Positions 26,540 to 50,554 of a stretch of DNA of 64,000 bases are shown here, piece by piece. The translations under genes and the position numbers were made by a program. Location of the stretch: NCBI RefSeq assembly GCF_009914755.1, contig NC_060944.1. One strand, written 5' to 3'. Every line of letters starts with the position of its first letter. Positions within the stretch are counted from its first letter, which is position 1. This stretch comes from the human T2T-CHM13v2.0 reference genome, Homo sapiens. The notes below the pieces were generated by a model. That model did no database searches, had not been told where the DNA came from, and saw nothing but the letters and a program-made list of their open reading frames with translations.

Positions 26540-26619
26540 CACTCCAATTTTTAGCCATCTTGAACATATTTGCAGCTCTGGTATACATTTCACAAGCCTC
26601 TTCTATTCTTGTGTTTCCT
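26540..26619 (-). CDS. NAPB: NAPB exon 2 (80 nt): (G)[26 protein letters not shown]
   Basis: ctttttctcag|AGG ... GTG|gtatgt. Confidence 0.97.
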
Positions 26620-26867
26620 CTGAGAAAAAGTTAAAAATTAGATTTTTAACAACCATCCACATCTCTAATTCTCCCTCCCTCAAATGATTAACATTTAGTA
26701 TATACTTGCTATGTGCCAGACAAGCATTACAGAATCTTAACCTCTATTTAAAGGAGATACTCTTACTATACCTGTTTTCCAGATGAGGAAACTGGGGTGT
26801 TAAGTGGTAAAGTAACTAGCCCGAGGTGACACAGAAAGGATAGCTCAGAATTAAGACTCAAACACAG

Positions 26868-27160
26868 GGCAGGGCATGATGGCTCATGCCTGTAATCCCA
26901 GAACTTTGGGAGGCCAAGGCGGGCGGATCACCTGAGGTCAGGTGTTCGAGACCAGCCTGGCCAACATGGTGAAACCCCATCCCTACTGAAAATACAAAAA
27001 TTAGCTGGGTGTGGTGGCATGTGCCTGTAGTACCAGCTACTCAGGAGGCTGAGGTAGGAGAATTGCTTGAACCTGGGAGGCAGAGGTTGTAGTGAGCTGA
27101 GATCGTGCCATTGCACTCCAGCCTGGGCAACAAGAGCAAAACTATGTCTCAAAAAAAAAA
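26868..27160 (+). mobile_element. Alu (AluSq/Sx-like) inserted into a MIR
   Basis: Perfect 15-bp TSD AAGACTCAAACACAG (26853-26867, 27161-27175). MIR core CAGATGAGGAAACTG at about 26780. Confidence 0.92.
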
Positions 27161-28319
27161 AAGACTCAAACACAGATCTGGCTGACCCCAGAACCAGAGG
27201 TGTTACAAACTGAAGATGTTATTCTGATTACATCTTTAATCAGAGTCCTTCCCATCTATAAAAGCTGGAAGTTTTATATCAGTCTGAGTAGTTAAAAGTA
27301 CGTTTTTCAAAGGAGATTAAATTTTGAAGGATAAAGACATCTTTACCCTGTTATCTCCCAAGAGTTCAGCACTATGTTTATTCAGAAGCCACGTCTGATG
27401 AGAAAGTGGCACGACATTCTACAGCTGTATGATGTCAACTCTGGTAAGGGCAAGTCCTTCTCCAACCTGGAGGAAGCCTCAGGGTCCGGCCCAGTTTAGA
27501 AATGTATTTTGCAACACCCTGAGAAATGCATTTTACAACACCCTGAGAGAAGGGTACCTCCACTGTTGCTTGGACATATACAGTTCTGCAAAGTTCTTTA
27601 CCAAGCAGCTGATTCCACTGAGGGACAGCTTTAAGCTACTTGGAAATTTCTTCTCACATAAAAGCCAAAATTATCCTCCGTAATCCTCCCAGAGTTAACT
27701 TTGCTTTTACTATGCTAAGGCCCCTCCATGAAAGACGTTTATCTATCTTGTCTATTTATAATCATAAAATAAACAGTGGAAAACTGAGATGCAGCAGACT
27801 CTGTACAGTATACATAACAAGGAACTCGGTGGGGTATGGACATAAGGACTCAGAGACAGGACAGGTCAAGGCTGACACTGGATGCTGGGCCTGGTATGAA
27901 CACATGTACATGAAAGAGTGCACACACGTGTTAGGAACTCCATTAAACTCCAAGCTCCAGCAGAGGAGCTTGCAGCTCCCTGTCAACACAAGTCCTAGTG
28001 CAGAGCAGAGGCTGGGCATACAGCAAGGCTCAGGTGTGACTCAGACCTTAGGCAATAACTACTAACAGTATGGCCCTGGACCAGTTCTTTAACTCCTTCA
28101 CACCTCAGTTTTGGCATGCGTAAACTGAAGATAATGTATACCTAGGAGTTATTATGAGGATCAAAAGAAATAATCCACATACAGCTGCCACTGCAGAGCT
28201 TCACCCAGAGCAGGTACTCAATCAGAATGGTTATCATATCTAGATCCATGTATGGAAGGCATAAAAACCTTTGGGAATATTACATTGTATGTCTCATGAG
28301 GAACATGTATCTAGAATAA

Positions 28320-46914: not shown

Positions 46915-48300
46915 ACCACTGGTGGCTATTTACATTCAAGTTAAATAATATTAAATAAAATGTAAAGTTCCATTTCTTGGCTGTACTAGCCGTATTTCAA
47001 GTGCTCAATAGCCACACATAGCCAGTGGCTACTGAAAGAGTTATAAATATAGCATCCTGGTGGATTGACTAAGTTAGACACCTGGTGGATTGACTAAGTT
47101 AGATACTTGAGGGCGGTGGCTCACGCCTGTAATCCCAGCACTTTGGGAGGCCAAGGCAAGCGGATCACTTGAGGTGAGTAGTTCAAGACCAACCTGGCCA
47201 ACACAGTAAAACCCCATCTCTACCAAAAATACAAAATTTACAAAAAATACAAAAATTAGTTAGGTGTCGTGGTGCATGCCTGTAATCCCAGCTACTCAGG
47301 AGGCTGAGGCAGGAGAATCACTTGAACCTGAGAGGTGGAACAGAGGTTGCAGTGAGCCGAGATTGCACCATTACACTCCAGCCTGGGCGACAGAGTGAGT
47401 GAGACTCTGCTCAAAAAAAAAAAAAAAAGTTAGACACCCAAAAAACGACAGGTGCAAGAAGATTATTTTGACTTTTTCTTTTCTTTTTTGCATACAGAAT
47501 ACACACTGGACACTTTGACCTCTTGTTTCTTTCTTTCTTTTTTTTTTTTTTTTGAGACAGAGTTTCACTCTGTTGCCCAGGCCAGAGTGCAGTGGCTCAC
47601 TGCAAGTTCCGCCTCCCAGGTTCACGCCATTCTCCTGCCTCAGCCTCCCAAGTAGCTGGGACTACAGGCACCCACCACCACACCCGGCTAATTTTTTGGA
47701 TTTTTAGTAGAGACGGGGTTTCACTGTGTTAGCCAGCATGGTCTCGATCTCCTGACCTCGTGATCCACAAGCCTCGGCCTCCCAAAGTGCTGGGATTACA
47801 GGCGTGAGCCACCGCGCCTGGCCCCAACCTCTTGTTTATTTAAAGGCAAGAGATGAAATTCCCATATGAAAGATGTCCCTCTTATACTAGAACTAAAGCA
47901 ACATTCTTATCATCAAAGACAGGAAGTTGAGGCTAAGAGAATTCTGTACAAACCCTATTAAACTAACCCTTATCTTCTTAGTCACTTTTCTATCCAATTA
48001 ACTACCCTAGCCCAAGCCCCTCTGCCTCATCACATTTTCAGTTTACTATTCTTTGTCCAATTCAGTAAATAAGTAACACACTCTAACTGCCTCTTTGGGT
48101 TTTCATTTCCTTATGAGGCCTCCCATGCCATGTAAAACTTGTATCAAATACACCTGTGTGCTTTCCTGCTATTAACTTGTCTTATATAAGTTTAATTTTC
48201 AGACTCCACCAGGAGCCTGAGATGCCCCCCTACACTACTATATGGACTGCACAGACAGAGAACAATTTTATCATTCCACAAGTCCTAGTGGATGGCACTA
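46915..48300 (+). mobile_element. MER3-like DNA transposon split by an ERV1 (MER34/MER39-like) solo LTR (47033-48234), which itself contains two Alus (about 47108-47428 +, about 47535-47824 -)
   Basis: LTR TG...CA ends with 4-bp TSD CTAC (47029-47032, 48235-48238). MER3 halves flank it. Confidence 0.7.
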
Positions 48301-49649
48301 GCCTCTATGTGCTTTGCTTTTCAGAAGTTCTGGACACTTGTAAGAAAAGAAGAAAAAGGCTTCAGGGAGTTTCTGAGAAGGCAGAGCAGGAAAGGAGCGT
48401 AGCCTGAACAAGGCAGAGCCAACAGTACTGCTGGCTTTTCCCTGTGAGAAGATGGAGGTGGACACCTGGACACTCAGACTGAATCAGCACATACCCCGAA
48501 AGATGATCCATCAAGACAGGGCTGAAGCTACTTGAGAACCCCAATACTAAGAAAGCCAGAGTCAGAAAAGAACAGAATCGATATGGGGAAAGGGTGTAGC
48601 CATCTGTGTGTGTTCACAGAAGGGGAGAAAGCACCAGGCAAAGATCCAGTATGGAAAATTATGGGACATCACTGCTGCTTCACTGAAGCAAAGCAAGAAG
48701 GCTCACCCACATTAAAGGGGAGGGAAATGAGACGACATCTCCTGATGGGAGGGCCTCTGAGGATTTGCAGATGTTTTCACACCACGACAGCTAGGTTAGA
48801 GGGAGTCCGTGCTCACCCTGGTCCACTCTGGTTGCATTGACAAAGTTGGGAAGCTGGAGCCCCTACGCTGGCGTTGGGGGACAGCCTTCAGCTCACATGG
48901 CCCTGCATGGCATGGCCCAACGGTCCCTGCCCAGGTCTGCAGTGGCCTTCTCTGATGACATCTCAGCCTTCGTTCTGCCTGAAATGCTAAGCGTGGCTCA
49001 GAGTCATCGGACAAGGTCAAACCATCTAAAGCAGAGTGTTCAGCTTCAGAAGGCAGGGAAGGAAGAAGTCCATTTCAGGAGGCTCTTCACCCAAAATCGT
49101 TAAAGGAATGCATTAATGAAAATAAATCTTCCATCTGTGTGGATGAGGTTGTGCAATTCTAAGGACAGAATTTAATTGTTCTATTTACAGTGATTCTTTT
49201 CATTTTTCTCATAGACTAACAAAACCCAAGAACATTTGAATGGCACATTTCAGAGAAATAATTAAACAGCTTTTGTTAATCTCTAAAAAACTTTTTGAAA
49301 CAACATCAGTTTAAGTGTTTGTGTGTTATGTGTGTGGGGTGACATTTCACACCCTGTGAAAACTGTTACAAGTTTCCCCAAATGTAACTTTATTAATCTT
49401 ATTTAACCTTTCCTTAAAAAATTACTCTATAAAATTCAGACCAAAAAGTTAGAAAAGGTAAAATTAAATATACGCAAATATCTGTTACAGAAAACAAAAA
49501 ATGGTAAATTAAGTTAAAATAAATGCTTATGAGAAAATATATATTATTGTCATTAGTAAGTGCTCTTCTTCTTCTTCTTCTTTTTTTTTTTTTTTTTTTT
49601 TTTTTGAGACAGGGTGTCGCTCTGTTGCCCAGGCTAAAATGCACAATCA

Positions 49650-50554
49650 GGGGAGGAGCCAAGATGGCCGAATAGGAACAGCTCCGGTCTACAGCTCCCA
49701 GCGTGAGCGACGCAGAAGACGGGTGATTTCTGCATTTCCATCTGAGGTACCGGGTTCATCTCACTAGGGAGTGCCAGACAGTGGGCGCAGGCCAGTGTGT
49801 GTGCGCACCGTGCGCGAGCCGAAGCAGGGCGAGGCATTGCCTCACCTGGGAAGCACAAGGGGTCAGGGAGTTCCCTTTCCGAGTCAAAGAAAGGGGTGAC
49901 GGACGCACCTGGAAAATCGGGTCACTCCCACCCGAATATTGTGCTTTTCAGACCGGCTTAAGAAACGGCGCACCACGAGACTATATCCCACACCTGGCTC
50001 AGAGGGTCCTACGCCCACGGAATCTCGCTGATTGCTAGCACAGCAGTCTGAGATCAAACTGCAAGGCGGCAACGAGGCTGGGGGAGGGGCGCCCGCCATT
50101 GCCCAGGCTTGCTTAGGTAAACAAAGCAGCCGGGAAGCTTGAACTGGGTGGAGCCCACCACAGCTCAAGGAGGCCTGCCTGCCTCTGTAGGCTCCACCTC
50201 TGGGGGCAGGGCACAGACAAACAAAAAGACAGCAGTAACCTCTGCAGACTTAAGTGTCCCTGTCTGACAGCTTTGAAGAGAGCAGTGGTTCTCCCAGCAC
50301 GCAGCTGGAGATCTGAGAACGGGCAGACTGCCTCCTCAAGTGGGTCCCTGACCCCTGACCCCCGAGCAGCCTAACTGGGAGGCACCCCCCAGCAGGGGCA
50401 CACTGACACCTCACACGGCAGGGTATTCCAACAGACCTGCAGCTGAGGGTCCTGTCTGTTAGAAGGAAAACTAACAACCAGAAAGGACATCTACACCGAA
50501 AACCCATCTGTACATCACCATCATCAAAGACCAAAAGTAGATAAAACCACAAAG
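49650..50554 (+). promoter_or_regulatory. L1 5'UTR: internal sense promoter (YY1 site AAGATGGCC at 49661-49669) and antisense promoter
   Basis: Complete CpG-rich L1HS 5'UTR. The promoter activities are established for this family, not shown by the sequence itself. Confidence 0.85.
49884..50099 (-). CDS. L1 ORF0 (71 aa, antisense), intact
   Basis: MAGAPPPASLPPCSLISDCC...RFSRCVRHPFL* within ORF 49884..50168. Both internal splice donors present (exon ends at 49994 and 49909). Confidence 0.85.
   Translation of the reverse strand: MAGAPPPASLPPCSLISDCCASNQRDSVGVGPSEPGVGYSLVVRRFLSRSEKHNIRVGVTRFSRCVRHPFL

What the first reader, a model, noticed from the sequence alone, without database searches (positions are those of the whole stretch)
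26540..50099. Human-specific L1 antisense ORF0 is phase-matched to NAPB: predicted ORF0-beta-SNAP fusion proteins
Seen: the L1HS 5' end lies about 4.7 kb upstream of the NAPB ATG, with intact ORF0 (50099-49884) on the NAPB strand. Donor SD2 (TCCAG|gtgcgt, exon end 49909, 191 nt, phase 2) matches phase-2 NAPB intron 1. Splicing to exon 2 gives ...RFS-R(AG|A)-GNTRIEEA..., a 329-aa protein (ORF0 1-64 + NAPB 34-298). Donor SD1 (CCAG|gtgtgg, exon end 49994, 106 nt, phase 1) is in frame with exon 3 (274 aa) and exon 4, but stops quickly in exon 2 (EETQE*). Known: the L1 antisense promoter drives chimeric transcripts, and ORF0 donors fuse to nearby exons. The SNAP N-terminal hydrophobic loop (here F27-F32, exon 1) mediates membrane attachment, while the C-terminus stimulates NSF. 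Inference: when this L1 is demethylated (germ line, embryo, neurons, tumours) it could act as a human-specific alternative first exon. The product would be a beta-SNAP lacking the membrane loop but keeping SNARE- and NSF-contacting regions, or the transcript could interfere with the NAPB promoter. Expression is not shown by the sequence.
Basis: partly seen in the sequence, partly recalled or inferred. Interest (0 to 1): 0.82.

Follow-up and report, generated by a model that had tools for sequence, protein, structure and literature searches.

The report
L1 ORF0 in frame with NAPB
A young human L1 retrotransposon sits just upstream of the NAPB gene, and its antisense mini-gene ORF0 could in principle splice in frame into NAPB, but this is a one-in-three coincidence of a known kind and no such transcript has been recorded.

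Summary
A full-length L1HS lies on the + strand at 49650-55763, with its 5' end 4.7 kb upstream of the NAPB ATG. It carries an open 71-aa ORF0 on the NAPB strand. Donor 49909 (phase 2) joins NAPB exon 2 in frame, giving 329 aa. Donor 49994 (phase 1) is in frame with exons 3 and 4 but stops early in exon 2.

None of this is special to the locus. ORF0 and both donors are family-standard: 12 of 12 other copies have identical donors. A phase match has a 1-in-3 chance. A third good donor lies after the ORF0 stop. Poly(A) signals and 26 pyrimidine-rich acceptors lie on the way to exon 2.

The element is already catalogued in hg38 as an L1HS with NAPB named beside it. Its methylation is about 15% in 2102Ep cells, and it is sense-expressed in 2102Ep and MCF7. 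NAPB is absent from three L1-chimera supplement sets and one chimera table that I searched, and no supplied RefSeq model starts in the L1.

Verdict: a plausible but unverified new member of a known kind (ORF0-exon fusions). Interest is modest.

The parts
49650..55763 (+). Whole L1HS insertion: L1 body, its poly(A), a 3' transduced segment and a second A-rich tail.
   Evidence: The 5' start follows the TSD directly. It is catalogued as chr20:23426108-23432140:+:L1HS:REF, full-length, 6032 bp.
49636..49649 (+). 5' target-site duplication (14 bp).
   Evidence: An exact second copy lies at 55764-55777.
55764..55777 (+). 3' target-site duplication (14 bp).
49650..50554 (+). L1 5'UTR (905 nt), bidirectional promoter region. 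It has 36 CpG, observed/expected 0.48.
   Evidence: It is 97.3-99.6% identical to the 5'UTRs of 12 other genomic copies.
49884..50099 (-). ORF0: 71 codons plus stop, ATG at L1 nt 450.
   Evidence: No Pfam family. Identity is 97-99% to 149 other scored copies.
49986..49997 (-). Donor 'SD1': CAG|gtgtgg, exon end 49994, phase 1, 7 of 9 matches to CAG|GTRAGT.
   Evidence: Identical in 12 of 12 other copies.
49901..49912 (-). Donor 'SD2': CAG|gtgcgt, exon end 49909, phase 2, 8 of 9 matches.
   Evidence: Identical in 12 of 12 other copies.
49838..49849 (-). Third donor: CAG|gtgagg, exon end 49846, 8 of 9 matches. It lies downstream of the ORF0 stop, so its use gives no fusion.
   Evidence: Present in 11 of 12 other copies.
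50555..51571 (+). L1 ORF1, open, 338 aa.
   Evidence: Three L1 ORF1 Pfam domains.
51635..55462 (+). L1 ORF2 frame, 1276 codons, with in-frame stops at 52784-52786 and 53282-53284.
   Evidence: The endonuclease domain lies before the first stop, and the RT domain is cut by the second. The element is labelled 'intactORF1' only.
55685..55763 (+). 3' transduced segment (about 56 nt with its own AATAAA) plus a second A-rich tail.
   Evidence: It matches chr10 of the same genome at 59 of 59 bases.
44850..45033 (-). NAPB exon 1 (ATG at 44947, 98 coding nt). It encodes residues 1-32 and two bases of codon 33, including F27-F32.
   Evidence: supplied annotation.
26540..26619 (-). NAPB exon 2 (80 nt), start phase 2. 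Its acceptor ends in ...ttttctcag.
20618..20734 (-). NAPB exon 3 (117 nt), start phase 1.

Best explanation
This is an ordinary, already catalogued full-length L1HS (Ta-type) insertion. It lies with its 5' end towards NAPB, 4.6 kb upstream of the NAPB transcription start. It has an open ORF1, an ORF2 with two premature stops, and a short 3' transduction.

Its antisense ORF0 and its splice donors are the standard ones of the L1 family. The phase-2 donor fits NAPB's phase-2 first intron, which is a real but roughly 1-in-3 coincidence.

The element is heavily methylated in most cell lines measured and hypomethylated in a few. In those few, antisense transcripts probably arise (inferred). Most of these would encode ORF0 alone, use the post-stop donor, end at intergenic poly(A) signals, or splice to cryptic acceptors.

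A spliced ORF0-NAPB exon 2 mRNA is possible as a minor by-product. It is not recorded anywhere I could search, and no function need be assumed.
For: - The anatomy and the frames are shown directly.
- ORF0 is a family-wide feature. There were 8682 candidate loci and 150 were scored. All 150 cover 71 of 71 aa with no stops and 97-100% identity.
- The donors are family-wide too. The SD1 and SD2 14-mers are identical in 12 of 12 fetched copies.
- There are competing signals on the NAPB strand. A third donor lies after the ORF0 stop. Between the L1 and the NAPB start there are 4 AATAAA and 3 ATTAAA. There are 26 acceptors more pyrimidine-rich than that of exon 2. At least three antisense Alus lie on the path.
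- Nine methylation values are given: 0.146 (2102Ep), 0.195, and seven between 0.78 and 0.94, including MCF7 at 0.817.
- NAPB has 0 hits in the supplements of three L1-chimera studies and is absent from the MCF-7 chimera table (file 9).
- No main text in the library combines NAPB with ORF0, L1HS, LINE-1 plus chimeric, antisense promoter, or LINE1 in a relevant way.
- The supplied RefSeq table has no NAPB model and no other gene starting in the L1.
- By passages of Criscione 2016 quoting Denli 2015, only 57 of about 3200 ORF0 loci showed an exon fusion.
Against: - The locus is among the limited set of L1HS copies scored as expressed. It is sense-expressed, by 3' readthrough plus L1EM, in 2102Ep and MCF7, and it is nearly unmethylated in 2102Ep.
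- Criscione 2016 relays from Denli 2015 that ORF0 (antisense) transcription is correlated with the sense transcript, so antisense transcription here is likely in such cells.
- NAPB exon 2 is the first constitutive acceptor on that strand.
- Both intra-ORF0 donors match the donor consensus as well as NAPB's own exon 1 donor does.
- The negative datasets are limited. They cover ESTs, brain and glioma, DNMT1-KO neural progenitors, and only ESR1-bound L1s in MCF-7. None was embryonal carcinoma, ES cells or testis.
- I did not see the list of 57 fusions in Denli 2015.
Confidence: 0.7

Rival explanations
1. When this L1 is demethylated, its antisense promoter serves as a human-specific alternative first exon of NAPB. 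The product would be an ORF0-beta-SNAP fusion of 329 aa that lacks residues 1-33 with the apolar loop, at levels that matter to the cell.
For: - The frame match and complete downstream ORF are shown, and the Kozak context.
- The donors are good.
- The locus is hypomethylated and expressed in 2102Ep.
- ORF0-exon fusions are a documented kind (passages).
- The N-terminal apolar loop of Sec17/alpha-SNAP is functionally important. This rests on abstracts of PMC5540461 and PMC9634978 and the title of PMC12923601.
Against: - No junction is recorded in the three supplement sets and one chimera table searched, or in the RefSeq models supplied.
- Competing donor, poly(A) and acceptor signals are present.
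- The splice must span 23 kb and skip an active CpG-island promoter.
- Removing residues 1-33 also removes the first helix of the protein (recalled from SNAP structures), so the fold and SNARE binding may suffer.
Confidence: 0.15
2. The L1 affects NAPB without making a fusion. Antisense read-through into the NAPB CpG island could cause transcriptional interference. Alternatively, the unmethylated L1 5' end could act as an enhancer-like element or epigenetic boundary.
For: - The supplied RefSeq table lists an 'enhancer' at 49326-50032, which spans the flank and L1 nt 1-383.
- Lanciano 2024 (passages) reports methylation changes extending about 300 bp upstream of L1s.
- The antisense promoter points at the NAPB promoter, 4.6 kb away.
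Against: - The reported epigenetic effect is short-range (section title 'local but short-range'). The promoter is 4.6 kb away.
- No expression data link L1 state and NAPB level.
- Seven poly(A) hexamers lie in between.
Confidence: 0.1
3. The L1 is inert with respect to NAPB in all normal contexts. It is methylated and silent, and both its sense and antisense output are confined to cancer or embryonal carcinoma lines.
For: Seven of nine methylation values are at least 0.78. The two low values include an embryonal carcinoma line.
Against: No data from germ line or early embryo were seen. The element is still scored as expressed in MCF7 at 0.82 methylation.
Confidence: 0.05

Closest known systems
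ORF0-proximal exon fusions of primate L1 (Denli et al. 2015, Cell). Known to me only through passages in Criscione 2016, Hancks & Kazazian 2016 and Honda et al. 2020.
   Same: It has the same 71-aa antisense ORF0 with two internal splice donors. A host exon lies downstream on the same strand, and the frame is compatible.
   Different: Those 57 cases were observed in RNA or ribosome data. Here no junction has been observed. I could not see the list of 57.
L1 antisense-promoter chimeric transcripts. Examples are L1-BCAS3 and L1-GNGT1 in Lanciano 2024, UVRAG in Criscione 2016, and the 988 EST-supported cases.
   Same: A full-length young L1 lies upstream of, or within, a gene in the opposite orientation, so the antisense promoter points along the gene.
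   Different: NAPB is absent from the supplementary tables searched. Here the splice would have to skip the gene's own CpG-island first exon.
N-terminal apolar-loop mutants of Sec17/alpha-SNAP.
   Same: The predicted product lacks the loop. This is F27-F32 in NAPB, encoded in exon 1.
   Different: The studied mutants change or replace the loop only. The predicted fusion deletes residues 1-33 altogether and adds 64 unrelated residues. Nothing was tested here.

Membership tests
L1HS (Ta) full-length retrotransposon | About 6 kb with 5'UTR, ORF1, ORF2 (EN + RT), 3'UTR, poly(A) and target-site duplication. | tested here: met
   ORF2 carries two in-frame stops, so the copy is full-length but not intact.
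L1HS (Ta) full-length retrotransposon | Ta diagnostic 3'UTR characters: ACA trinucleotide and G near the end of the 3'UTR. The diagnostics are recalled, not from a call. | tested here: met
   ACA at 55574-55576 and G at 55659, read. The L1HS label comes independently from the hg38-based tables.
L1HS (Ta) full-length retrotransposon | Absent from the orthologous site in other apes (human-specific). | not testable with these tools
   No ape genome is held. The claim is inferred from the subfamily, the perfect 14-bp TSD and the 59 of 59 identity of the transduced segment to its source site.
ORF0 locus | Open 71-codon frame antisense in the 5'UTR with a good start context. | tested here: met
   Identity is 70 of 71 to 12 of 12 fetched copies; 10 of them differ only at residue 53, H here and R there.
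ORF0 locus | Two splice donors inside the ORF. | tested here: met
   Exactly two sites with at least 7 of 9 consensus matches lie within the coding part. A review passage states that ORF0 has two donors.
ORF0-exon fusion / L1 antisense chimeric transcript | Host exon downstream on the same strand, and reading frame preserved across the junction. | tested here: met
ORF0-exon fusion / L1 antisense chimeric transcript | Antisense transcription start inside this L1 copy. | not testable with these tools
   Only sense expression and methylation of this copy were seen.
ORF0-exon fusion / L1 antisense chimeric transcript | Observed spliced junction (EST, RNA-seq or long read). | tested here: not met
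   NAPB has 0 hits in the supplements of three studies and in one chimera table. No RefSeq model exists in the supplied table. This is a literature test only, since no raw RNA data are available here.
ORF0-exon fusion / L1 antisense chimeric transcript | Translation of the fusion (Ribo-seq or MS). | not testable with these tools
   None.

The most novel reading that the evidence does not exclude
A human-only L1HS insertion, nearly unmethylated in embryonal-type cells, gives NAPB a second, L1-driven first exon in early embryo, germ line or tumours. This would yield an ORF0-beta-SNAP protein without the membrane-anchoring loop that changes SNARE recycling. It would be a lineage-specific, epigenetically switched isoform of a core membrane-fusion factor.
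Probability: 0.05. Interest if true: 0.6.

Novelty: new member of a known kind. Interest (0 to 1): 0.3.

Why it matters
If the junction exists, it would add a concrete, human-specific case of an L1-encoded peptide fused to a core trafficking protein. It would also be easy to test, because the locus is uniquely mappable through its flank and is unmethylated in a standard cell line. As it stands, it mainly shows that 'phase-matched ORF0' predictions are expected by chance at a third of suitably placed L1s and need RNA evidence before they mean anything.

Tried and rejected
- Denli 2015 is not held, so I did not see its list of 57 fusions or its own naming of SD1 and SD2.
Four items therefore went unread: the supplements of Adami 2025 (PMC12791003) and the three papers that mention 20p11.21 together with LINE-1 and transduction (PMC12896411, PMC11871128, PMC2768975; listing only). 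They may bear on the expression and source activity of this locus.
- Rfam found nothing in 26000-56000.
- My acceptor scan is a crude pyrimidine count, not a trained splice model. It shows only that decoy acceptors exist.
- I considered claiming that the insertion is polymorphic. It was detected in 9 cell lines with three blank entries, and it appears in the file of Table S6. I rejected the claim because the blanks may be non-detection. The Table S6 row also pairs the locus with a guide RNA at a distant position.
- No complex-prediction job was sent.
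Full report
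**The observation**

Reading the minus strand at 49500-50700 and listing ORFs shows a 71-codon ORF at 50099..49884. It is antisense in the 5'UTR of an L1 that lies on the + strand. The start codon has G at -3 and G at +4.

By the ruler and the scan, there are two donor-like sites inside the ORF:
- CAG|gtgtgg, exon end 49994, 106 nt from the ATG, phase 1, 7 of 9 matches to CAG|GTRAGT.
- CAG|gtgcgt, exon end 49909, 191 nt from the ATG, phase 2, 8 of 9 matches.

The NAPB coding parts from the supplied table translate into 298 aa without an internal stop. Exon 1 contributes 98 coding nt, so intron 1 is phase 2 and exon 3 starts in phase 1.

The script joined each donor to each downstream NAPB exon, with these results:
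- 49909 to exon 2: a 329-aa frame ending at the natural NAPB stop. It is made of ORF0 1-63, a junction Arg codon, and NAPB 34-298.
- 49994 to exon 2: stops after 40 aa.
- 49994 to exon 3: 274 aa.
- 49994 to exon 4: 235 aa.
- 49909 to exon 7: also in frame.

In all, 4 of 20 combinations are in frame. Residues F27-F32 lie in exon 1.

**Anatomy of the element**

- The L1 starts at 49650, directly after a 14-bp target-site duplication at 49636-49649. The duplication recurs at 55764-55777.
- ORF1 (50555-51571, 338 aa) is open and has the three L1 ORF1 Pfam domains.
- The ORF2 frame (51635-55462) keeps its register over 1276 codons. It has in-frame stops at codons 384 and 550, the second inside the reverse-transcriptase domain.
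- The 3'UTR carries ACA at 55574-55576 and G at 55659. As I recall them, these are the Ta-subfamily characters.
- After a 17-A tail (55668-55684) come about 56 nt with their own AATAAA and a second A-rich tail. This is a 3' transduction.
- The transduced segment matches chr10:75,629,126-75,629,184 of the same genome at 59 of 59 bases. No L1 lies upstream there, so the parent copy is absent from this assembly.
- The insertion interrupted an Alu on the minus strand.

**Is the ORF0/donor arrangement special to this locus?**

No.
- A protein search of the same genome with this ORF0 gave 8682 candidates. The 150 that were scored all cover 71 of 71 residues without stops, at 97-100% identity.
- I fetched 12 of the 149 other loci. 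I chose them from minus-strand rows of that list, so they are not a random sample. Their 5'UTRs are 97.3-99.6% identical to this one and have 34-42 CpG, against 36 here.
- ORF0 differs at one residue in each of the 12. In 10 of 12 the difference is residue 53 (H here, R there).
- The 14-mers around both intra-ORF0 donors are identical in 12 of 12.
- So the donor phases, 1 and 2, are fixed properties of the family.
- A given donor matches a given intron phase one time in three. One of the two donors fits the first acceptor two times in three under equal phase frequencies. The match with NAPB is therefore not more than chance.

**What lies between the donors and NAPB exon 2**

- A third donor, CAG|gtgagg (exon end 49846, 8 of 9 matches), lies after the ORF0 stop and is present in 11 of 12 other copies. 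Transcripts using it would encode ORF0 alone.
- On the NAPB strand there are 4 AATAAA and 3 ATTAAA between the L1 and the NAPB start, and 16 more such hexamers in intron 1.
- A crude scan finds 26 AG sites with at least 14 of 17 pyrimidines upstream between 49908 and exon 2. Exon 2's own acceptor has 13 of 17 and is not in that list.
- One of these sites, at 42320, has the look of the antisense-Alu acceptor known from Alu exonisation (recalled).
- At least three Alus lie antisense to such a transcript.
- The splice to exon 2 would span 23 kb and pass over the NAPB CpG-island promoter, where GC is 0.70-0.75 across 44000-45200.
- No ATG lies between 50490 and the ORF0 start on that strand.

**What is in print**

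The locus is catalogued.
- In supplementary tables of Lanciano et al. 2024 (PMC10879037; passages returned by a search of 9 files) it is chr20:23426108-23432140:+:L1HS:REF. It is described as full-length, 6032 bp and 'intactORF1', with NAPB named in the same row.
- Nine methylation values are given. They are 0.146 in 2102Ep, 0.195 in a line I could not assign, and seven between 0.78 and 0.94, including MCF7 at 0.817.
- The locus is scored 'expressed (3' readthrough, L1EM)' in 2102Ep and MCF7.
- It carries the tags Rodriguez-Martin_2020:29 and Tubio_2014:8. From the methods passage, I take these to record published transduction events from this locus.
- The paper's main text (passages) says that only a limited number of L1HS copies are expressed in any cell type.

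No L1-NAPB chimera was found.
- NAPB has 0 hits in the 10 supplementary files of Criscione 2016 (988 EST-supported antisense transcripts).
- It has 0 hits in the 3 files of Pinson 2022 (brain and glioma).
- It has 0 hits in the 5 files of Jonsson 2019 (DNMT1-KO neural progenitors).
- It is absent from file 9 (Table S7) of Lanciano 2024, which covers chimeras of ESR1-bound L1s in MCF-7.
- Full-text searches gave nothing relevant for: NAPB with ORF0; antisense promoter plus LINE-1; L1HS; LINE-1 plus chimeric; transposable element plus alternative promoter; or LINE1.
- In the annotation supplied with the finding, the NAPB models end at 45033, and no gene model lies between NAPB and CSTL1.
- Passages of Criscione 2016 quoting Denli 2015 say that 57 of about 3200 ORF0 loci showed an exon fusion.

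**Protein consequences (inference)**

- The predicted 329-aa product would lack NAPB residues 1-33, including the apolar loop, and would carry 64 residues of ORF0.
- ORF0 matches no Pfam family.
- Abstracts on Sec17 (PMC5540461, PMC9634978) and a title on alpha-SNAP (PMC12923601) state that the N-terminal apolar loop matters for membrane binding and fusion.
- That the deletion also removes the first helix, and may weaken the fold or SNARE binding, is recalled knowledge and was not tested here.

**Verdict**

In its favour:
- This copy is one of the few L1HS loci that are unmethylated and transcribed in embryonal carcinoma cells.
- Exon 2 is the first constitutive acceptor on that strand.

Against it:
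- The arrangement is generic.
- Competing signals are present.
- No junction appears in the sources I could search.

I put about 0.7 on 'ordinary catalogued L1HS whose frame match is coincidental, with at most rare by-product chimeras'. I put 0.15 on a chimeric mRNA or protein at meaningful levels in some context. The rest goes to non-fusion effects on NAPB or to complete inertness.

**Limits**

- No RNA data could be queried.
- Denli 2015 was not held.
- Paper reading closed. The supplements of Adami 2025 and the three papers mentioning 20p11.21 (listing only) were not read.
- No ape genome was available, so 'human-specific' rests on subfamily assignment.

Noticed in passing
window 55685-55763; L002 1500-1560 (G000:C10:75629126-75629184): The L1 carries a 3' transduction of about 56 nt with its own AATAAA. 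The source site on chr10 matches at 59 of 59 bases but has no L1 upstream in this assembly. The parent copy is therefore non-reference here or lost. A weaker match (82%) on chr13 (L003) looks like a paralogous old repeat.
   Followed up: partly
window 51635-55462: ORF2 has two in-frame stops, and hg38 tables label the locus 'intactORF1' only. Yet the same table tags it with 29 (Rodriguez-Martin 2020) and 8 (Tubio 2014) events, apparently somatic transductions from this locus. A source element with a broken ORF2 in two assemblies is unexplained. Possible reasons are other alleles, mobilisation in trans, or misassignment.
   Followed up: no
window 49838-49849 (-): A third strong donor (CAG|gtgagg, exon end 49846) lies just after the ORF0 stop and is present in 11 of 12 other L1 copies. 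Its use would give ORF0 alone plus a NAPB 3' part.
   Followed up: yes
window 49941-49943 (-), ORF0 residue 53: This copy has His at ORF0 residue 53, where 10 of 12 compared copies have Arg. Two of the 12 (L005, L006) share His.
   Followed up: partly
window 55778-63204 (+): The L1 sense strand points at CSTL1, whose start is 7.4 kb downstream. The first AATAAA after the insertion is at 56502. Sense read-through from this copy is recorded in MCF7 and 2102Ep, so L1-driven transcription towards CSTL1 is conceivable.
   Followed up: no
window 13747-13757 (-): The donor of NAPB exon 6 reads CAG|gcaagt, a GC-AG intron.
   Followed up: no
window 50250-50524 (-): Five ATGs (50490-50524) and an 85-codon ORF (50507..50250) lie upstream of ORF0 on the antisense strand. 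They would act as upstream ORFs only if antisense transcripts started beyond L1 nt about 840.
   Followed up: no
window 49326-50032: The supplied RefSeq table lists an 'enhancer' spanning the unique flank and the first 383 nt of the L1 5'UTR. I could not see what assay it rests on.
   Followed up: no
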